Shown here one piece after another: positions 465 through 6,278 of a stretch of DNA of 6,417 nucleotides. Under the pieces are notes generated by a model. It did no database searches. It was not told where the DNA came from and worked only from the letters and a program-made list of their open reading frames with translations. Within the stretch, counting starts at the first letter, position 1, and the number at the start of each line of letters is the position of its first letter. The position numbers were made by a program, and so were the translations under genes. Where the stretch lies: IMG/VR virus record IMGVR_UViG_2693429748_000018. One strand, 5' to 3'. Source of the DNA: a virus (lineage: Duplodnaviria; Heunggongvirae; Uroviricota; Caudoviricetes).

Positions 465-498
465 CGTTTTATGCCTGACGTTAGAAGAGTTTCTACAA

Positions 499-520
499 CC
501 CGCCGCCGAGCGGGTTTTTT
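499..520 (+). terminator. Intrinsic terminator, tR'-like, about 45-65 nt downstream of the predicted pR' start
   Basis: Stem CCCGC (500-504) / GCGGG (510-514) with loop CGCCGA, followed by TTTTTT (515-520). Confidence 0.6.
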
Positions 521-640
521 ATGACTGAAATCGCGTCAGTACAGTAAACGCGCTGGTGGCGGTGAATACCTGTCTTTCAGCTTGCTGGCTTTTTCGACAA
601 GAGTTATTGGTGTGTCACGTTAACCGGAAAAGGAAAAGAC

Positions 641-838
641 ATGCTAAAACAGCAGGATATGACAGAAACCGCCAGAGTGGTGTTTAATGAATTAAGCGTT
701 ACCGAACCGGCGACAGTCGGGGAGATAGCGCAGAATACTTACCTTTCACGCGAACGCTGCCAGTTAATACTGACCCAGCTGGTTATGGCGGGTCTGGCAG
801 ACTATCAGTTCGGTTGTTACAGACGCCTTCCGCAGTGA
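641..838 (+). CDS. Hypothetical small protein (65 aa), possible helix-turn-helix DNA-binding protein
   Basis: ATG at 641 preceded by AAGGAAAAG (purine-rich Shine-Dalgarno about 6-8 nt upstream). The segment TVGEIAQNTYLSRERCQLILTQL looks HTH-like. The stop sits inside a terminator hairpin. No family recognised. Confidence 0.5.
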   Translation: MLKQQDMTETARVVFNELSVTEPATVGEIAQNTYLSRERCQLILTQLVMAGLADYQFGCYRRLPQ

Positions 839-850
839 AGGCTTTTTTAT
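826..850 (+). terminator. Intrinsic terminator overlapping the stop of the 641-838 ORF
   Basis: Stem GCCTTC (826-831) / GAAGGC (838-843) with loop CGCAGT, followed by TTTTTTATTT. Confidence 0.5.
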
Positions 851-986: not shown

Positions 987-1062
987 GGCCCTTTAGCTCA
1001 GTGGTGAGAGCGAGCGACTCATAATCGCCAGGTCGCTGGTTCAAATCCAGCAAGGGCCACCA
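987..1062 (+). tRNA. ileZ: tRNA-Ile (anticodon CAU, lysidine type; ileZ/ileX-like); elongator tRNA-Met not strictly excluded
   Basis: 76-nt cloverleaf: acceptor GGCCCTT/AAGGGCC, D-arm GCTC/GAGC, anticodon loop CTCATAA (CAT at tRNA positions 34-36), T-arm GCTGG-TTCAAAT-CCAGC, discriminator A, encoded CCA. Very close to E. coli ileX as I recall it. Confidence 0.85.
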
Positions 1063-1162: not shown

Positions 1163-1239
1163 GCGTTGTTAGCTCAGCCGGACAGAGCAATTGCCTTCTA
1201 AGCAATCGGTCACTGGTTCGAATCCAGTACAGCGCGCCA
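1163..1239 (+). tRNA. argO: tRNA-Arg (anticodon UCU; argO/argU-like, reads rare AGA/AGG)
   Basis: 77-nt cloverleaf: acceptor GCGTTGT/ACAGCGC (one G-U pair), D-arm GCTC/GAGC, anticodon stem ATTGC/GCAAT with loop CTTCTAA (TCT anticodon), T-arm ACTGG-TTCGAAT-CCAGT, discriminator G, encoded CCA. Confidence 0.85.
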
Positions 1240-1349
1240 TATTCATTCTTCCAGATTCCTTCCGGCAGAGCCTTATACTGAAATATACCTGGCTCAGGAT
1301 ATTGTTGAAAATATTTTATGTTTGTCAAAAATAAAAGTTCTGTTAAGTA

Positions 1350-1703
1350 TTGATTGAGTGTTTGTTATACGGTCTAATGGTTTTTTCAGCATTAAATATT
1401 TATCATTCATATGGTGTGGGTAGAGTGAATATTGATGAGGCGTCGGGGTGTTTCATCCTTAGGCAGCGTATTGATATAGTCAATGCAGCACGAGCAAAGG
1501 CCTTCAGCCGTTTGACAGTTTTGTTCTGTACTCCTGATCGTCTTTCGGGAAGAGACGTTATTATTCTGAATAGTGATGCTATACAGAGGGTTTGCGATGA
1601 GTTCATGGTTGCTAATTCAGAATTATTTGCTCTTGTTCAGGAGTACAACAGAATAGCCAGGACCTGTGGTATGGATGAACTTCGGATTACTCATCTGGGG
1701 TAG
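1350..1703 (+). CDS. Hypothetical protein; first ORF of the cargo region (track start TTG 1350; first in-frame ATG at 1377 gives 108 aa)
   Basis: Open frame of 117 codons with no family recognised. No convincing Shine-Dalgarno before either start. Possible weak promoter TTGTCA (1322-1327). Coding status uncertain. Confidence 0.35.
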   Translation: MIECLLYGLMVFSALNIYHSYGVGRVNIDEASGCFILRQRIDIVNAARAKAFSRLTVLFCTPDRLSGRDVIILNSDAIQRVCDEFMVANSELFALVQEYNRIARTCGMDELRITHLG

Positions 1704-1907
1704 ATACATATCTGGATTATCACCTGTTACGGTAAAAAGTGATTGCTTACTGTTTTTGTGAATGGCATTGCAGCAGCCGGATAATGTCAGTGCTGGCTGA
1801 CGGTGTGCTGGTGGCGGGTGTGGTGGTTGTTGCTTTCCCGTTGCTGAAAAAGAAAACGCCAGACTGTTAGCCGGGTATCAGTTAGCGGGAGAAATTTTTA
1901 AATACTT

Positions 1908-2130
1908 CACAATTCAGGCGGTTGACTGTTGTCTGGTTTGCGGGGAGTTTGTTAAAAGAAACTGGCATGGTGAATCCCCCTGTGCGGAGGGGCAATCAGC
2001 GAGTAGGTATATGGGATAATCGCGGATTCAGGTGCTGGTACTGAATTCACCGGGAGGCACCCGGCACCATGCAATGGCACATAGCGCCACTCTCCAGCCC
2101 CTCTCCGGAGGGGCTGTTTATATTGATTTT
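1908..2130 (+). repeat. Structured non-coding module, copy A (promoter-like TTGACT, internal hairpins, terminal intrinsic terminator)
   Basis: Begins CACAATTCAG (1908-1917), then TTGACT (1922-1927), hairpin CCCCT-GTGCGG-AGGGG, hairpin CCGGG-AGGCA-CCCGG, ending in terminator stem AGCCCCTC (2096-2103) / GAGGGGCT (2108-2115) with loop TCCG and a T-rich tail. Near-identical to copy B, about 70-75% to copy C. Small ORFs inside are not conserved between copies. Confidence 0.8.
2096..2130 (+). terminator. Intrinsic terminator ending module copy A
   Basis: Perfect 8-bp GC-rich stem AGCCCCTC/GAGGGGCT, 4-nt loop, then GTTTATATTGATTTT. Confidence 0.6.
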
Positions 2131-2148: not shown

Positions 2149-2180
2149 CCTTATGGACTTTGTTGTTTTAGTCCATAAGG
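2149..2180. repeat. Perfect 11-bp inverted repeat (CCTTATGGACT ... AGTCCATAAGG) with 10-nt loop at the 3' end of the minus-strand gene
   Basis: 2149-2159 is the exact reverse complement of 2170-2180. It overlaps the stop codon of the 2151-2486 minus-strand ORF. Confidence 0.7.
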
Positions 2181-2486
2181 ACATATTTGCAGAGTGCAAC
2201 GGTTATTAAAGCATTCATTCAATACGTTATCTGTATTTGTAGGGCATTCCTGGCTATTTTTGATTGAATTCCAGAATGTTTTATTGAATGGTACTACGTT
2301 GTAAATGGTTACAGGTAGCACTTTGTTATTGAGCATGATGCCTGTGTGAGTCAGTGTAAATATACTTTCAGGAGGTAAGAAAGCATCCGATTGATACCAG
2401 ATTATTAATTTTATTTTACTCCATATGACTGAAAAAGATATTCCGCATGATGGCTGGATAACTGTATCAATCACAATCCACTTCAT
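2151..2486 (-). CDS. Hypothetical 111-aa Cys-containing protein on the minus strand inside an AT-rich insert
   Basis: ATG (plus-strand CAT at 2484-2486) preceded on the minus strand by AACAAGGAAACTAA, a good Shine-Dalgarno (AAGGA) 6-7 nt upstream. Candidate promoter further upstream on the minus strand: TTTACA, about 15 bp, TATACT. The region is visibly AT-rich relative to its flanks. The 3' end overlaps a perfect 11-bp inverted repeat (2149-2180). No family recognised. Confidence 0.5.
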
Positions 2487-2746: not shown

Positions 2747-2806
2747 ATGGCATTTAAACACTATGATGTTGTCAGACTGGCTCGCTTTTGCGGGCCTTTT
2801 TTTTAA
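2747..2806 (+). pseudogene. Truncated duplicate of the esterase (nanS-p) 5' end: 19 codons then stop
   Basis: ATGGCATTTAAACACTATGATGTTGTCAGACTGGCT... encodes MAFKHYDVVRLARFCGPFF*. The first 9-10 codons match the start of the full-length gene at 3740 (MAFKHYDVVR...). It is followed by a T-run. Confidence 0.6.
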
Positions 2807-2812
2807 ATGTCT

Positions 2813-3025
2813 CACAATTCAGACGGTTGACAGTTGTCTGTTTTGCGGGGAGTTTGTTAAAAGAAACTGGCATGGTGAATCCCCCTGTGCGGAGGGGCAA
2901 TCAGCGAGTAGGTATATGGGATAATCGCGGATTCAGGTGCTGGTACTGAATTCACCGGGAGGCACCCGGCATCATGCAATGGCACATAGCGCCACTCTCC
3001 AGCCCTCTCCGGAGGGGCTTTTCTG
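2813..3025 (+). repeat. Structured non-coding module, copy B
   Basis: CACAATTCAG (2813-2822), TTGACA (2827-2832), the same two hairpins as copy A, and terminal stem CCCTC/GAGGG with loop TCCG followed by CTTTTCT. Differs from copy A at only a handful of positions over about 205 bp. Confidence 0.8.
3002..3025 (+). terminator. Intrinsic terminator ending module copy B
   Basis: GC-rich stem CCCTC (3003-3007) / GAGGG (3012-3016), loop TCCG, then a T-rich tract. Confidence 0.5.
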
Positions 3026-3213
3026 TGCCGGATACATCACAGTTTCTGGAACCTTAGGTACTACAGTATCAGTCAGGGTGCTATATTTTCAGATGTGATG
3101 AAAGCCTGTCAGCAGGCAGGGCGTATCGGAAATGACCCAGTAGAGAAAACGTTGACTCAGATACCGGTGCTGAGTTACCGGGAAACCGGCATCACATGAC
3201 CGCTATCCTTCCA

Positions 3214-3240
3214 GGCCCATCCGCTCCGGTGGGCCTTTTT
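3214..3240 (+). terminator. Intrinsic terminator just upstream of module copy C
   Basis: Stem GGCCCA (3214-3219) / TGGGCC (3230-3235) with an inner CCG/CGG pairing, followed by TTTTT (3236-3240). Confidence 0.5.
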
Positions 3241-3279
3241 ACTGCAGAAAACAGGTTCCCCGTTAAATGCTATGTTGCT

Positions 3280-3511
3280 CACAATTCAGTAAGTTGACAG
3301 TTGCCTGTCAGACTGGGCATTTGTTAAAAAAATTTCGCATGGTGAATCCCCCTGAGCGGAGGGGCGACTGGTGACGGTATAATCTCTGATTATCAAAACG
3401 AGAATGACGCGGGTTTAGTGGCACCGGGCTGAACTCACCGGGAGGCACCCGGCACCATGTGCATGATGATACAGATACGCGGCTTTAGCCCCTCTCCGGA
3501 GGGGTTTTCTT
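3280..3511 (+). repeat. Structured non-coding module, copy C (diverged)
   Basis: CACAATTCAG (3280-3289), TTGACA, and conserved blocks GGTGAATCCCCCTG.GCGGAGGGGC, CTCACCGGGAGGCACCCGGCACCATG and terminal CCCCTC-TCCG-GAGGGG followed by TTTTCTT. The blocks between them are substituted or inserted relative to A/B, including a perfect TATAAT in GGTATAATC. Confidence 0.75.
3489..3511 (+). terminator. Intrinsic terminator ending module copy C
   Basis: Stem CCCCTC (3489-3494) / GAGGGG (3499-3504), loop TCCG, then TTTTCTT. Confidence 0.6.
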
Positions 3512-3517
3512 GTGGGC

Positions 3518-3739: not shown

Positions 3740-5593
3740 ATGGCATTTAAACACTATGACGTGGTCAGGGCGGCATCGCCGTCAGACCTTGCGAAACGAC
3801 TGACACAAAAACTGAAGGAGGGCTGGCAGCCGTTTGGTAGTCCGGTGGCCATAACCCCTTATACCCTGATGCAGGCGATTGCAGCAGAAGGTGATGTGGT
3901 CGTCAGTGGTGCAACTGAGCCGGAGTGGTACTACGTCATCGTACTGGCCGGGCAATCCAATGCCATGGCTTACGGTGAAGGTCTTCCGCTTCCGGATTCA
4001 TACGATGCGCCCCATCCGCGCATTAAGCAACTGGCCCGTCGTAACACAGTGACTCCCGGTGGTGAAGTATGCGTATTTAACGACATCATTCCTGCTGACC
4101 ATTGTCTGCATGATGTTCAGGATATGAGTACGATTAACCATCCCCGGGCTGACCTGAGCAAAGGGCAGTACGGCTGTGTCGGACAGGGCTTACATATTGC
4201 CAAAAAACTGCTTCCGTATATCCCTAATAATGCGGGGATCCTGCTGGTACCATGCTGTTGTGGTGGTTCGGCATTCACCCAGGGCACGGAGGGGACATTC
4301 AGCGAGTCCACGGGGGCCAGTCAGGATTCGGCTCGCTGGGGAGTGGGTAAGCCGTTATATCAGGATCTGCTTTTCCGCACGAAGGCAGCATTGCAGAAAA
4401 ACCCGAAAAACGTTTTGCTGGCGATATGCTGGATGCAGGGGGAATTCGATATGACGAATGCCAGTTACGCCCAGCAGCCAGCAGCATTTCTTGCAATGGT
4501 ACAGCAGTTCCGTGCTGACCTTGCCGGGCTGGCGGCGCAGTGTCACGGTGGAAGTCCGGCATCAGTCCCCTGGATTTGTGGCGACACGACATACGCGTGG
4601 AAACAAGAACACGGTACGCAATATGAAGTGGTATATGGTGCATATAAAGGTAAAGAATCCCAGCAGATTTATTTTGTTCCCTTTATGACCGATGGTAGCG
4701 GAGTTAATACACCGACAAACAACCCGTCAGAAGATCCTGATATTGCCGGGTCTGGTTATTACGGTTCGGCATCCCGAACGAACAAAAACTGGGTATCATC
4801 AAATCGCCCGACGCATTTCAGCTCATGGGCGCGTCGTGGCATTATTCCCGATCGTATGGCAACTGCTATTCTGAACGTAGCCGGTCGCACCTTAGCCTTC
4901 ATTAGTGGTAAGGCACCGGAAATCAAACCCTCGCCCGGCGGCGACACGCCATCGGGGCCGTCTGAAGATGCATCCATACGCACAATCTCCCTGTTGCCGA
5001 CAGCCGGAGACGCTGCTGCGCAGGGCTGGAGCATTAAGAATGGCGGAGTTCAGTTGTCAGATGGTGTATTTAAGATCACCAAGCAGAGCAATAAAGCCTG
5101 GTCCCTGACGCGCCCGGTGGATGACGCAGTCTCCCTGCTGACACGGGGTGGCAGACTGAGCTGTAAGTTTCGACTGTCAGGCGCACTGACCAACAACCAG
5201 TTCGGTCTGGGAATTTATCTGTATACCGATGTAGCGTTACCTGACGTCGTGGCGATGACCGGGACTGGTAACCCGTTCCTGATGTCGTTCTTCACCCAGA
5301 CCACAGACGGCAAACTGAATCTGATGCATCACAAGAAAGCAGGAAACACAAAGTTGGGCGAGTTCGGGAATTACAGTAACGACTGGCTGACGCTGGAGCT
5401 GGTGTTCACCGCCGGCAGTGCCACGGTTACTCCGAAACTGAATGGAGTGGCTGGCCCGGCATTCCAGGTCATAAAAGACAGTCTGACACTGGGGCTGAAT
5501 GCGCTGACGCTGACGGATATTACCAAAAATGCAGCGTATGGCGTTGAGATAGAAAGTCTGGTGCTGGAGATAAATGCACCGGCATCATCATAA
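3740..5593 (+). CDS. nanS-p: Prophage-encoded sialate (9-O-acetyl-N-acetylneuraminic acid) O-acetylesterase, NanS-p/YjhS family (SGNH/DUF303-type), 617 aa
   Basis: ATG at 3740 with a strong Shine-Dalgarno (GGGAGG 7-8 nt upstream). The N-terminus MAFKHYDVV... and the conserved block VLAGQSNAMAYGEGLP (GQSN catalytic-serine motif of sialate O-acetylesterases) match the nanS-p ORF found just downstream of stx in Stx phages and in other lambdoid prophages. The smaller ORFs nested in both strands are shadow frames. Confidence 0.88.
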   Translation: MAFKHYDVVRAASPSDLAKRLTQKLKEGWQPFGSPVAITPYTLMQAIAAEGDVVVSGATEPEWYYVIVLAGQSNAMAYGEGLPLPDSYDAPHPRIKQLARRNTVTPGGEVCVFNDIIPADHCLHDVQDMSTINHPRADLSKGQYGCVGQGLHIAKKLLPYIPNNAGILLVPCCCGGSAFTQGTEGTFSESTGASQDSARWGVGKPLYQDLLFRTKAALQKNPKNVLLAICWMQGEFDMTNASYAQQPAAFLAMVQQFRADLAGLAAQCHGGSPASVPWICGDTTYAWKQEHGTQYEVVYGAYKGKESQQIYFVPFMTDGSGVNTPTNNPSEDPDIAGSGYYGSASRTNKNWVSSNRPTHFSSWARRGIIPDRMATAILNVAGRTLAFISGKAPEIKPSPGGDTPSGPSEDASIRTISLLPTAGDAAAQGWSIKNGGVQLSDGVFKITKQSNKAWSLTRPVDDAVSLLTRGGRLSCKFRLSGALTNNQFGLGIYLYTDVALPDVVAMTGTGNPFLMSFFTQTTDGKLNLMHHKKAGNTKLGEFGNYSNDWLTLELVFTAGSATVTPKLNGVAGPAFQVIKDSLTLGLNALTLTDITKNAAYGVEIESLVLEINAPASS

Positions 5594-5678
5594 AAAGTGA
5601 GCCAGCCAAATGGAAGGTATCGTTAAACTCACCGGTAGTGTCAGTGGGTCGTCTGAGATGCCTGCATGAGTTATCAGA

Positions 5679-5710
5679 GCCATCAGTACTTAACTGGTGG
5701 CTTTTTTTAT
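5679..5710 (+). terminator. Intrinsic terminator between the esterase gene and the lysis cassette
   Basis: Stem GCCATCAG (5679-5686) / CTGGTGGC (5694-5701), 8 bp including one G-U pair, loop TACTTAA, followed by TTTTTTTATT (5702-5711). Confidence 0.6.
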
Positions 5711-5743
5711 TGTTGTCAGCTTCCGGATAACGGGAGACGGGGT

Positions 5744-5959
5744 ATGTACCAGATGGAAAAAATCACAACAGGTGTGTCATACACCACGTCAGCGGTGGGA
5801 ACGGGCTACTGGTTCCTGCAGTTGCTGGACAGGGTTTCCCCGTCTCAGTGGGCGGCAATAGGCGTGCTGGGGAGTCTGCTGTTTGGGCTGCTGACATATC
5901 TGACTAACCTGTATTTCAAAATCAGAGAGGACCGTCGTAAGGCTGCACGGGGAGAGTAA
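5744..5959 (+). CDS. S: Class II holin (pinholin), S21/EssD-like, 71 aa, with dual-start motif
   Basis: [71 protein letters not shown] is near-identical over most of its length to the phage 21 S / E. coli EssD holin as I recall it. ATG at 5744 is preceded by GGAGACGGGG (Shine-Dalgarno), and Met1 and Met4 (5744 and 5753) form the usual antiholin/holin dual start. The 97-aa track ORF from 5666 is an in-frame upstream extension that crosses the 5679-5710 terminator and lacks a ribosome-binding site. Confidence 0.9.
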
Positions 5960-5963
5960 TTCA

Positions 5964-6278
5964 ATGACTCAAAACTATGAACTGATTGTGAAAGGGATCC
6001 GCAATTTTGAGAATAAAGTTACGGTAACTTTAGCGTTACGGGACAAAAAACGCTTTGACGGTGAAATTTTTGACCTGGACATCTCGCTGGACCGTGTTGA
6101 AGGTGCCGCGCTGGAGTTTTATGAGGCAGCAGCCAGAAGGAGCATCAGACAGGTCTTCTTGGATGTTGCTGCCGGGTTATGTGAAGGGGACGAGCTGTTG
6201 CCAGAAACGCGCCCCTGTTCAGAGGCGCGGTATACCATAAAAATTAACAGTTCTGATAACTCGATTACGGGTTGTTAG
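5964..6278 (+). CDS. Hypothetical 104-aa protein between holin and endolysin (same position and size as ydfR-like DUF ORFs in E. coli lambdoid prophages)
   Basis: ATG at 5964, 4 nt after the holin stop, with GGGGAGAG (Shine-Dalgarno) 5-12 nt upstream, so it is translationally coupled to S. I recall a roughly 103-aa ORF (ydfR) at this position in the K-12 Qin prophage; its sequence identity is not verified. Confidence 0.65.
   Translation: MTQNYELIVKGIRNFENKVTVTLALRDKKRFDGEIFDLDISLDRVEGAALEFYEAAARRSIRQVFLDVAAGLCEGDELLPETRPCSEARYTIKINSSDNSITGC

What the first reader, a model, noticed from the sequence alone, without database searches (positions are those of the whole stretch)
1350..1703. First cargo ORF after tRNA-Arg: 117-aa frame with weak translation signals
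This is the first ORF downstream of the tRNAs, where a toxin or moron would sit in related phages. It lacks a convincing Shine-Dalgarno at both candidate starts (TTG 1350, ATG 1377) and resembles nothing I recognise. It may be a real lysogenic-conversion gene, a gene remnant, or non-coding.
Basis: inference. Interest (0 to 1): 0.4.

Follow-up and report, generated by a model that had tools for sequence, protein, structure and literature searches.

The report
Small conserved prophage late-region gene
The open frame is a real but uncharacterised small phage gene, shorter than first read (92 amino acids from a GTG at 1425), carried as accessory cargo between the late-gene activator Q and the lysis genes of lambda-like prophages in about a quarter of E. 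coli genomes.

Summary
The ORF at 1350-1703 exists as described, and neither TTG 1350 nor ATG 1377 has a Shine-Dalgarno. Comparative evidence shows that only 1425-1703 is coding, giving 92 aa from a GTG start.

- Three E. coli lineages at 68-72% nucleotide identity align over these 279 nt with no indel and the same stop. dN/dS is 0.26-0.27 in this frame and about 1 in the other two.
- The upstream 75 nt behave as non-coding. They carry frameshifting indels, an in-frame stop in one lineage, and mostly non-synonymous polymorphism.
- Distant relatives of 91-110 aa occur in Citrobacter, Salmonella (phage ST64B Sb55), Serratia, Morganella, Proteus and Xenorhabdus, and they start at the equivalent position.
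- The family is phrog_2873/phrog_4827 (function unknown). It has no Pfam, NCBIfam or PADLOC match.
- The AlphaFold model (pLDDT 88.6) is a soluble antiparallel alpha-helical hairpin with no significant structural neighbour.
- In nine of the ten lineages examined the gene lies in the late operon; the tenth is a plasmid. It often follows phage tRNA genes and is often followed by a terminator.

My reading is a Q-dependent, moron-like accessory protein that acts by binding a partner. It is not a toxin, a remnant or non-coding DNA. Function is unknown, and this is an ordinary result with modest interest.

The parts
1425..1703 (+). Best-supported coding sequence: GTG start, 92 aa, TAG stop. Member of phrog_2873/phrog_4827 and relative of ST64B Sb55.
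   Evidence: Gapless 279-nt alignment with L008 4784-5062 and L011 5032-5310, with the same stop. dN/dS is 0.26-0.27 in frame and 0.9-1.25 off frame. PGAP annotates the 92-aa version WP_001017777.1 in L011. phrog_2873 E = 5.6e-58 over residues 1-92. AF2 pLDDT 88.6.
1350..1424 (+). In-frame upstream extension (TTG 1350, ATG 1377, GTG 1416). Probably a 5' leader, not coding.
   Evidence: A 1-nt indel between L008 and L010 breaks the frame. L011 shows homology only from about 33 nt upstream of the start (window ~1392) and has an in-frame stop 10 codons upstream. In 81 near-identical copies there are 5 non-synonymous and 1 synonymous variable sites plus one 1-nt deletion at 1381. SD energies are -0.9, -2.4 and -2.1 kcal/mol. 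No significant RNA fold (z = -0.5).
1413..1421 (+). Weak Shine-Dalgarno-like GGTGTGGGT upstream of GTG 1425. It aligns with AGGAG in the L011 lineage.
   Evidence: Duplex with the 16S 3' end is -4.5 kcal/mol, against -6.9 for L011 and a background of -3.1. Alignment.
987..1062 (+). tRNA with CAT anticodon. ARAGORN calls it Met, PGAP annotates it as tRNA-Ile, so it is most likely the AUA-reading tRNA-Ile2.
   Evidence: A shared mosaic block begins at window 981 in 71 of 80 viral contigs.
1163..1239 (+). tRNA-Arg(TCT), which reads AGA/AGG, 186 nt upstream of the CDS.
   Evidence: The target CDS has 8 of 92 codons as AUA/AGA/AGG, the highest share in the window.
1305..1332 (+). Promoter-like site TTGAAA-16-AAAAAT (9 of 12 matches), not above chance.
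   Evidence: 8 sites found against 5.5 +/- 2.9 expected in shuffles.
1739..1870 (+). Downstream neighbour: 43-aa DUF3927 (TciB-like) small hydrophobic protein.
   Evidence: Pfam PF13064 E = 1.7e-27. PGAP names it 'DUF3927 family protein'. Window 1771-1900 is 90.8% identical to tciB of phage JLK-2012.
51..419 (+). 3' part of the Q antiterminator gene (Antiterm PF03589 with a DnaJ-type zinc finger).
   Evidence: PGAP 'antitermination protein' in L001.
497..524 (+). Intrinsic terminator downstream of Q, the presumed tR'. Late transcription must read through it to reach the tRNAs and the target gene.
   Evidence: stem 497-516 plus T run. Assigning it as tR' is inference from lambdoid architecture.
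825..850 (+). Second intrinsic terminator, after the 65-aa ORF 641-838.

Best explanation
Shown by the evidence:
- Window 1425-1703 is a genuine protein-coding gene under purifying selection. It encodes a 92-aa, non-secreted, near-neutral protein that starts at GTG 1425.
- The annotated or predicted longer forms (117 aa from TTG 1350, 108 aa from ATG 1377) carry a non-conserved leader.
- The protein belongs to an uncharacterised family of temperate Enterobacterales phages: phrog_2873/phrog_4827, ST64B Sb55, and E. coli WP_001017777.1.
- The predicted fold is a long antiparallel two-helix hairpin: helix 3-34, a conserved TPDR-containing loop at 35-49, and helix 50-81. R23, N64 and N75 are invariant.

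Inferred:
- The gene is accessory 'moron-like' cargo of the late operon.
- It is transcribed from the Q-antiterminated late promoter through tR' and the downstream terminators, on the same transcript as the two phage tRNAs that read its unusually frequent AUA/AGA/AGG codons.
- It is translated inefficiently from a GTG with a weak SD.

Most speculative step: with no catalytic fold, no membrane segment and a conserved polar stripe on a coiled-coil hairpin, it most likely works stoichiometrically. It would oligomerise and bind a host or phage protein during lytic growth as a modulator or inhibitor. It would not act as a toxin or an enzyme.
For: - Frame conservation: three E. coli lineages at 68-72% nucleotide identity share no indel over 279 nt and the same stop. 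Differences by codon position are 24/22/44. dN/dS is 0.26-0.27 in frame and 0.9-1.25 in the other frames.
- Start position: GTG is conserved in all three lineages. L011 has AGGAG four nt upstream and an in-frame stop ten codons upstream. PGAP annotates 92 aa there. Distant homologues of 91-99 aa start within about three residues of the same position with AAGGGA or AAGGA SDs.
- Extension is neutral: 5 non-synonymous and 1 synonymous variable sites plus a 1-nt deletion in 75 nt, against 5 non-synonymous and 6 synonymous in the 279-nt core.
- Family: 22 representatives at E <= 1e-3 among 1.84 billion cluster representatives and 40 in the profile search. hhalign to ST64B Sb55 gives probability 99.1%, E = 1e-18.
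- Fold: pLDDT 88.6, pTM 0.74. No 19-residue hydrophobic segment in the core; pI 5.7.
- Late-operon position: between Q and holin in the window, Citrobacter, Serratia and Morganella; after the lysis genes in ST64B; between tail genes in Proteus.
- Terminators lie 24-72 nt after the ORF in L011, L013 and L020, and directly upstream in L013 and L020.
- Rare codons make up 8.7% of the CDS.
- Prevalence: at least 80% of the query is covered in 1260 of 5426 complete E. coli genomes.
Against: - No expression or translation data exist for this gene.
- The SD at GTG 1425 is only marginally better than background (-4.5 against -3.1 kcal/mol).
- In the window lineage the frame stays open to 1347 in 80 of 81 copies, so some use of ATG 1377 cannot be excluded.
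- Many GenBank records annotate 108 aa.
- The binding-partner mechanism rests only on fold type. Foldseek found no neighbour below E = 0.1 in PDB or BFVD, and no conserved partner gene was found.
- There is no terminator between tRNA-Arg and the ORF in the window, so expression in lysogens from a tRNA promoter is possible.
Confidence: 0.7

Rival explanations
1. In this lineage the real product is the longer form: 108 aa from ATG 1377 or 117 aa from TTG 1350. Its hydrophobic N-terminus (LIECLLYGLMVFSALNIYH) would tether the hairpin to the membrane.
For: - The frame is open from 1347 in 80 of 81 near-identical copies.
- Residues 1-19 score 1.43 on a Kyte-Doolittle 19-residue window.
- Many GenBank records and the phrog_2873 profile use the 108-aa form.
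- Part of the leader is alignable between the window and the L008/L010 lineage.
Against: - There is no SD at either start (-0.9 and -2.4 kcal/mol).
- The extension is out of frame in L008, L009 and L012, and absent with an in-frame stop in L011.
- Its polymorphism looks neutral (5 non-synonymous, 1 synonymous) and one copy has a frameshift at 1381.
- Most distant homologues lack such an extension.
- The AF2 model of the 117-aa form has pLDDT below 56 over residues 1-30.
Confidence: 0.12
2. The gene forms a two-gene functional module with the downstream DUF3927 (TciB-like) membrane peptide. Examples would be a Tci-like envelope or colicin-resistance system, or a toxin/antitoxin-like pair.
For: - DUF3927 starts 36 nt after the stop with no terminator between them.
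- Both genes lie in the block shared by most IMG/VR copies; 78 of the 80 HSPs extend from the ORF past 1870.
- In Citrobacter the homologue lies upstream of tciA (TerB-like) and tciB (DUF3927).
- In JLK-2012 the equivalent slot holds tciA-tciB.
Against: - The association is not general. There is no DUF3927 next to the homologues in L011, Serratia, Morganella, Proteus, ST64B or the plasmid lineage.
- The 45-aa ORF after the L008-type copy has no similarity to DUF3927.
- In Citrobacter a terminator separates the homologue from tciA.
- P1 TciC is 35 aa and is not this family.
- No family member has a significant PADLOC match (best E = 0.009, one of nine members).
Confidence: 0.1
3. It is a lysogenic-conversion virulence factor or toxin, the functional analogue of Stx at this position, expressed from the prophage.
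For: - It occupies the position between the tRNAs downstream of Q and the nanS-p/lysis genes. This is the Stx slot in Stx phages, from established knowledge of 933W/Sp5 architecture.
- It is AT-rich (GC 0.44) relative to its neighbours.
- It is common in pathogenic and commensal E. coli.
Against: - The conserved 92-aa core has no transmembrane segment or N-terminal hydrophobic segment, so no signal-peptide-like feature was seen (no dedicated signal-peptide predictor was run).
- It has no similarity to any toxin or effector family.
- The fold is a simple helical hairpin.
- In relatives it is bracketed by terminators inside the late operon, with no promoter-like site between the upstream terminator and the start.
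- It also occurs among tail genes and next to terminase genes.
Confidence: 0.04
4. The interval is non-coding or a decayed gene remnant. Alternatively, the real gene is on the minus strand: 1294-1410, which is annotated in mEp460, or 1403-1606.
For: - PGAP leaves the window-type copy unannotated in nearly all RefSeq genomes.
- The mEp460 record annotates a 38-aa minus-strand ORF instead.
- ORFs of this length arise by chance.
Against: - dN/dS is about 0.26 only in the + frame.
- The family reaches 20% identity across several genera at constant length.
- The AF2 model is confident.
- The minus-strand 67-aa frame carries a stop in L008.
- The 38-aa minus ORF lies almost wholly in the non-conserved leader.
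Confidence: 0.03

Closest known systems
PHROG families phrog_2873 and phrog_4827 (function unknown)
   Same: Full-length HMM match of the 92-aa product to phrog_2873 (E = 5.6e-58). All 20 aligned relatives match phrog_2873 and 19 of 20 match phrog_4827.
   Different: The phrog_2873 profile is 108 positions long. It includes 16 N-terminal positions that correspond to the ATG 1377 extension, which the comparative data do not support as coding. No function is attached to either family.
Salmonella phage ST64B Sb55 (NP_700428.1, hypothetical protein) and E. coli WP_001017777.1 (92 aa, hypothetical protein)
   Same: Homologous. hhalign to Sb55 gives probability 99.1% and E = 1e-18. WP_001017777.1 is the 92-aa protein encoded at L011 5032-5310; its 279-nt CDS is 72% identical to window 1425-1703 (76% over the 286-nt BLAST segment), and the closely related cluster representative P0024 is 63% identical in protein. 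It has the same GTG start and stop. All are encoded in the late region of temperate phages.
   Different: Sb55 lies after the lysis cassette and before the HNH/terminase genes rather than between Q and holin. None of them has been characterised experimentally.
Phage 'morons' in the Q-to-lysis cargo slot of lambdoid phages (stx, tciA/tciB, tolA-like, AraC-like regulators, nanS-p)
   Same: Same slot, with variable presence between otherwise related phages. JLK-2012 has tciA-tciB there, and L012 and L003 have tolA-like and AraC-like genes. GC is lower than in neighbouring genes. A terminator follows the gene directly in three lineages.
   Different: No convincing promoter of its own and no evidence of expression in the lysogen. 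There is no similarity to any characterised moron product.
Small alpha-hairpin binding proteins (prefoldin beta subunit, TraM anti-activator of TraR, Rop)
   Same: Overall shape: two long antiparallel helices joined by a short loop, about 90 aa. TM-scores normalised to the query are 0.69-0.74.
   Different: Foldseek E-values are 0.19 to 1.0 and sequence identity is 10-16%, so this is shape resemblance only and not evidence of homology or shared function.

Membership tests
phrog_2873 (uncharacterised phage protein family) | Significant full-length match to the family HMM | tested here: met
   E = 3.8e-70 for the 117-aa frame (residues 10-117). E = 5.6e-58 for the 92-aa CDS (residues 1-92 on profile positions 17-108).
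Protein-coding gene (as opposed to a chance ORF) | Frame kept without indels in diverged homologues, with an excess of synonymous change | tested here: met
   Three lineages at 68-72% nucleotide identity with no indel over 279 nt. dN/dS is 0.26-0.27 in frame and about 1 off frame.
Protein-coding gene (as opposed to a chance ORF) | Detected translation product | not testable with these tools
   No Ribo-seq or proteomic data are at hand, and no paper mentions the protein.
Phage moron (Hendrix/Juhala definition) | Present in some but absent from closely related phages at the same map position | tested here: met
   The slot between the tRNAs and DUF3927/nanS-p holds tciA in JLK-2012. In other lineages it holds other cargo. 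Only 1 of 50,697 phage records carries the window-type gene.
Phage moron (Hendrix/Juhala definition) | Own sigma-70 promoter upstream and factor-independent terminator downstream | tested here: inconclusive
   Terminators follow the ORF in L011, L013 and L020, but in the window the next terminator comes only after DUF3927 and STnc100. Promoter-like sites are not above shuffle expectation.
Phage moron (Hendrix/Juhala definition) | Base composition different from flanking phage genes | tested here: met
   GC is 0.44, against 0.49-0.53 for Q, DUF3927, nanS-p and holin.
Phage moron (Hendrix/Juhala definition) | Expressed from the repressed prophage | not testable with these tools
   No transcript data. 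Terminator bracketing in L013 and L020 argues for Q-dependent expression instead.
Shiga-toxin-like or other secreted toxin cargo | Signal peptide and/or homology to a toxin or effector family | tested here: not met
   No Pfam, NCBIfam or PDB-sequence match. No hydrophobic segment in the 92-aa core on a Kyte-Doolittle scan; no dedicated signal-peptide predictor was run.
Tci module of phage P1 (TciA TerB-like, TciB DUF3927, TciC) | Homology to TciA, TciB or TciC | tested here: not met
   No TerB or DUF3927 Pfam match for the target. P1 TciC is 35 aa. Only the neighbouring ORF 1739-1870 is DUF3927.
Known anti-phage defence system components (PADLOC) | Match to a PADLOC model | tested here: not met
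   No hit for the window protein. One member out of nine matched HEC-06 at E = 0.009.

The most novel reading that the evidence does not exclude
The family could be a new class of small alpha-hairpin phage effectors that travels with phage tRNA genes. It is the first ORF after a tRNA cluster in the window (Arg), in Serratia (Met/?/Gly) and in Morganella (Asn). It also sits 580 nt after a tRNA-Thr on an E. coli plasmid. It might act with those tRNAs in the same process, for example by neutralising a host tRNA-targeting or translation-targeting defence, or by otherwise reprogramming the host late in infection.
Probability: 0.07. Interest if true: 0.55.

Novelty: new member of a known kind. Interest (0 to 1): 0.25.

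Why it matters
There are three practical points. First, a gene present in about a quarter of complete E. coli genomes is left unannotated by PGAP in nearly all window-type copies. Where it is annotated, it usually carries an N-terminal extension that the comparative data do not support. Second, the family has no Pfam or NCBIfam model although it is conserved across at least seven genera of Enterobacterales, so it is a candidate for a new DUF entry. Third, it occupies the cargo slot that carries Stx and other fitness factors. Knowing that it is a real, late-expressed small protein makes it a defined target for deletion and interaction studies. Nothing here suggests a new kind of biology.

Tried and rejected
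- Pfam, NCBIfam and PADLOC scans of the protein and of eight further family members found nothing significant.
- A profile search of PDB sequences gave only marginal hits, to GapR/UPF0335 at E = 0.12 and Rop at 0.79. I treated these as noise.
- Foldseek of both AF2 models against PDB, and of the second against BFVD, found no hit below E = 0.1. The hits were only generic helical hairpins.
- Literature searches for a peptide string, WP_001017777, phrog_2873 and Sb55 found no papers.
- sRNA-17 of the mEp460-like prophage of E. coli K1 (PMC7719688) seemed a possible overlapping transcript. Its sequence, taken from the paper's supplementary tables, is not in the window.
- P1 TciC as a possible homologue was rejected because it is 35 aa.
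- The 45-aa ORF downstream of the L008-type copy as a DUF3927 relative was rejected.
- A regulatory RNA structure in the leader 1340-1470 was rejected, z = -0.5.
- The search for related loci with the full 20-sequence alignment failed because no stretch was conserved enough. The genome-contig scan with the Serratia-type subgroup gave only two loci.
- RS218 (NZ_CP007149) is not in the E. coli collection.

Full report
Setting. The window is the late-regulatory and cargo region of a lambdoid prophage of E. coli. In order it contains:
- the 3' part of a Q antiterminator gene at 51-419 (Pfam Antiterm plus a DnaJ-type zinc finger);
- an intrinsic terminator at 497-516;
- a 65-aa ORF at 641-838 with its own terminator;
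- two tRNA genes at 987-1062 (anticodon CAT, annotated tRNA-Ile by PGAP) and 1163-1239 (Arg, TCT);
- the ORF in question;
- a DUF3927 ORF at 1739-1870;
- three full and two partial copies of the STnc100 sRNA family between 1936 and 3517;
- an IraM-like ORF on the minus strand;
- a 617-aa NanS-p-like esterase gene at 3740-5593;
- a class II holin gene and a DUF1327 gene.

The stretch 1240-1900 is 99.2% identical to phage mEp460. At least 80% of it is covered in 1183 of 5426 complete E. coli genomes.

The observation. The ORF at 1350-1703 (TTG start, 117 aa) exists, and ATG 1377 is in frame. Both starts lack a Shine-Dalgarno. The best duplex energies with the 16S 3' end are -0.9 and -2.4 kcal/mol, against a window-wide mean of -3.1. 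ORF length alone proves nothing. The window holds six stop-to-stop open frames of at least 117 aa, and shuffled sequence gives 1.8 on average.

Is it a gene? Yes, but a shorter one.
- A protein search found the window type, at 95-99% identity in hundreds of member sequences, and two diverged E. coli lineages at about 60% identity.
- The three lineages are the window, L008 4784-5062 and L011 5032-5310. Their DNA aligns over 279 nt with no gap and the same stop codon, at 68-72% nucleotide identity.
- Differences concentrate at third codon positions (24/22/44). Nei-Gojobori dN/dS is 0.26-0.27 in the ORF frame and 0.9-1.25 in the other two frames.
- The aligned block begins exactly at a GTG, which is window position 1425.

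The upstream part is not coding.
- In L011, similarity to the window begins only about 33 nt upstream of the start. An in-frame TGA lies ten codons upstream and AGGAG lies four nt before the GTG. PGAP annotates a 92-aa protein there, WP_001017777.1.
- In the L008/L010 lineage, part of the leader aligns with window 1345-1424. However, a 1-nt indel puts it in frame in L010 and out of frame in L008, L009 and L012.
- Among 81 near-identical copies of the window type, the 279-nt core has 6 synonymous and 5 non-synonymous variable sites. The 75-nt extension has 1 synonymous and 5 non-synonymous sites, plus one copy with a 1-nt deletion at 1381.
- GTG 1425 has the best SD of the four in-frame candidate starts, but it is weak at -4.5 kcal/mol.

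The family.
- An exhaustive profile search of 1.84 billion representatives found 22 proteins at E <= 1e-3.
- A second, profile-based word-indexed search found 40. They include 91-110-aa proteins from Citrobacter, Salmonella, Morganella, Serratia, Xenorhabdus and Shigella, all unnamed. A Proteus member (L024) came from the genome scan.
- In the 20-sequence alignment, R23, N64 and N75 are invariant, and C9, L12, E66, V71 and A78 are nearly so.
- Most N-termini fall within about three residues of the GTG 1425 position; four of the twenty carry an 11-residue N-terminal extension.
- Salmonella phage ST64B Sb55 is a member, with hhalign probability 99.1% and E = 1e-18.
- The family corresponds to phrog_2873 and phrog_4827, both of unknown function.
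- It matches nothing in Pfam, NCBIfam or PADLOC.
- GenBank records call it 'hypothetical protein', at 108 aa for the window type and 92 aa for the L011 type.
- PGAP leaves the window type unannotated in RefSeq genomes.

Structure.
- With eight sequences and the 117-aa frame, AlphaFold gave pLDDT 69.5, with the extension below 56.
- With 20 sequences and the 92-aa CDS, it gave pLDDT 88.6 and pTM 0.74. The model is helix 3-34, loop 35-49 carrying the conserved TPDR motif, helix 50-81, and a short tail.
- Foldseek found nothing below E = 0.1 in PDB or BFVD. The top matches are generic helical hairpins: the EmrA hairpin, prefoldin beta, TraM and designed hairpins.
- The core has no 19-residue hydrophobic segment, and its pI is 5.7.

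Context and likely expression. In nine of the ten lineages examined the gene lies in the late operon; the tenth (L016) is on a plasmid.
- Window: between Q, the tRNAs and the lysis genes.
- L008/L010 type: after an AraC-like gene downstream of Q.
- L011: between a DNA methyltransferase gene and a putative holin gene, with a DUF1883 gene on the opposite strand in between.
- Citrobacter: upstream of tciA-tciB and the holins.
- Serratia: 279 nt after a three-tRNA cluster downstream of a Q of the same type as the window's.
- Morganella: 174 nt after tRNA-Asn and 137 nt before the holin gene.
- ST64B: between the lysis cassette and the HNH/terminase genes.
- Proteus: between tail genes.
- One E. 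coli lineage has it on a Rep3 plasmid beside a fimbrial operon, 580 nt after a tRNA-Thr.

An intrinsic terminator follows the ORF within 24-72 nt in L011, L013 and L020. Another precedes it in L013 and L020. No promoter-like site is predicted between the upstream terminator and the start in either locus. This arrangement fits expression by Q-modified, terminator-resistant RNA polymerase during lytic growth.

In the window there is no terminator between tRNA-Arg and the ORF, or between the ORF and DUF3927. The only promoter-like site, at 1305-1332, is not above chance. Eight of the 92 codons are AUA, AGA or AGG, the highest share of any gene in the window. These are the codons read by the two tRNAs immediately upstream. 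I read this as consistent with co-expression, not as proof of it.

Mechanism. The gene, its boundaries, its family and its late-operon position are shown. Late, Q-dependent expression is inferred. The mode of action is the weakest step. A 92-aa soluble coiled-coil hairpin has no catalytic fold, no membrane segment, and conserved polar residues (R23, N64, E66, N75), with N64 and N75 eleven residues apart and so probably on one face of helix 2. Such a protein most plausibly acts by oligomerising and binding another protein. I found no conserved partner gene.

The DUF3927 neighbour is shared only with the Citrobacter lineage, and there a terminator and tciA lie between the two genes. The ORF after the L008-type copy is unrelated to DUF3927. 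P1 TciC is not this family. In phage JLK-2012 the same slot holds tciA-tciB. Homology to the window starts only at 1771, inside the DUF3927 ORF. This shows that the target gene is a mosaic replacement, not part of a fixed Tci module.

Verdict. The interpretation 'real gene' is right, and 'remnant' and 'non-coding' are wrong for 1425-1703. Both proposed starts are probably wrong, and nothing supports a toxin. This is an uncharacterised, widely distributed, under-annotated phage accessory gene. It is useful for annotation and as a defined target, but it is not surprising.

Noticed in passing
window 1936-2125, 2841-3030, 3308-3517 (full copies); 2699-2808 and 3069-3242 (partial): Three full copies of the prophage sRNA family STnc100 (RF02076, 124-161 bits against a gathering score of 47) and two sub-threshold partial matches lie in 1.6 kb. 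Each full copy ends in an intrinsic terminator and is preceded by a conserved CTCACAATTCAG...GTTGAC motif. A 2026 preprint (10.64898/2026.05.13.724894) links STnc100 to the PasD sRNAs and to Q and esterase genes. Such a tandem pile-up of copies upstream of nanS-p may deserve a separate look.
   Followed up: partly
window 2747-2806 and 3740-3760: The first ~20 nt of the NanS-p-like gene (ATGGCATTTAAACACTATGA..., encoding MAFKHYDVV) occur twice. The copy at 2747 runs into a stop and a terminator at 2779-2796. PGAP calls the equivalent stretch in strain 64 an incomplete DUF1737 pseudogene. This indicates a duplicated module boundary.
   Followed up: no
window 2151-2486, minus strand: A 111-aa ORF that PGAP names 'anti-adapter protein IraM' in the 99.8% identical locus L001 (6912-7247). 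It has no Pfam match at E <= 0.01. It is a prophage-borne paralogue of an RpoS-stabilising factor sitting in the same cargo region.
   Followed up: no
window 987-1062 and 1163-1239 versus 1425-1703: The CAT-anticodon tRNA is called Met by ARAGORN but tRNA-Ile by PGAP, presumably the lysidine-modified AUA reader. Together with tRNA-Arg(TCT) it decodes AUA/AGA/AGG. These make up 8.7% of the codons of the target gene, against 1.3% in nanS-p.
   Followed up: partly
window 1411-1428: A five-codon mini-ORF (ATG GTG TGG GTA GAG TGA) ends in a GTGA overlap with the GTG 1425 start. The same ATG...GTAGAGTGA arrangement is present in the diverged L011 lineage (ATG GCA GGA GTA GAG TGA). It could be coincidence, or a leader peptide with termination-reinitiation coupling.
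   Followed up: no
L003 4625-5360, also L004-L007: In at least 24 contigs, an IS3-family element (HTH_Tnp_1 plus rve ORFs) is inserted immediately upstream of the conserved GTG of the L008-type homologue. Gene callers therefore fuse 27 IS-derived codons onto it (P0017, 119 aa). The native leader is lost but the core stays intact.
   Followed up: partly
L016-L019, about 5347-6276: A 91-aa family member (P0038, seen on 46 or more contigs) lies on Rep3-type E. coli plasmids between a K88-like chaperone-usher fimbrial operon and a cation-efflux gene. It sits 580 nt downstream of a tRNA-Thr gene. This looks like a phage-derived tRNA-plus-ORF fragment that moved to a plasmid.
   Followed up: no
L024 1609-1902: In a Proteus prophage the family member sits between a tail-completion-type gene and the putative major tail protein gene. 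This is a quite different late-operon slot from the one between Q and the lysis genes.
   Followed up: no
window 641-838: A 65-aa ORF with a weak winged-helix (TrmB-like, E = 0.003) match and its own terminator. A 65-aa ORF of unchecked sequence occupies the same position downstream of different Q types in L008 (2490-2687), L011 (3080-3277) and L012 (1244-1441). It may be a conserved small gene between pR'/tR' and the cargo region.
   Followed up: no
window 981 and 2775 (block boundaries): In 71 of 80 IMG/VR contigs that carry the gene, homology to the window starts at 981, just before the first tRNA. In 52 of 80 it ends at 2775. The tRNAs, the target gene, DUF3927, one STnc100 copy and the IraM-like gene therefore travel as one ~1.8-kb mosaic block (981-2775), independent of the Q gene upstream.
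   Followed up: partly
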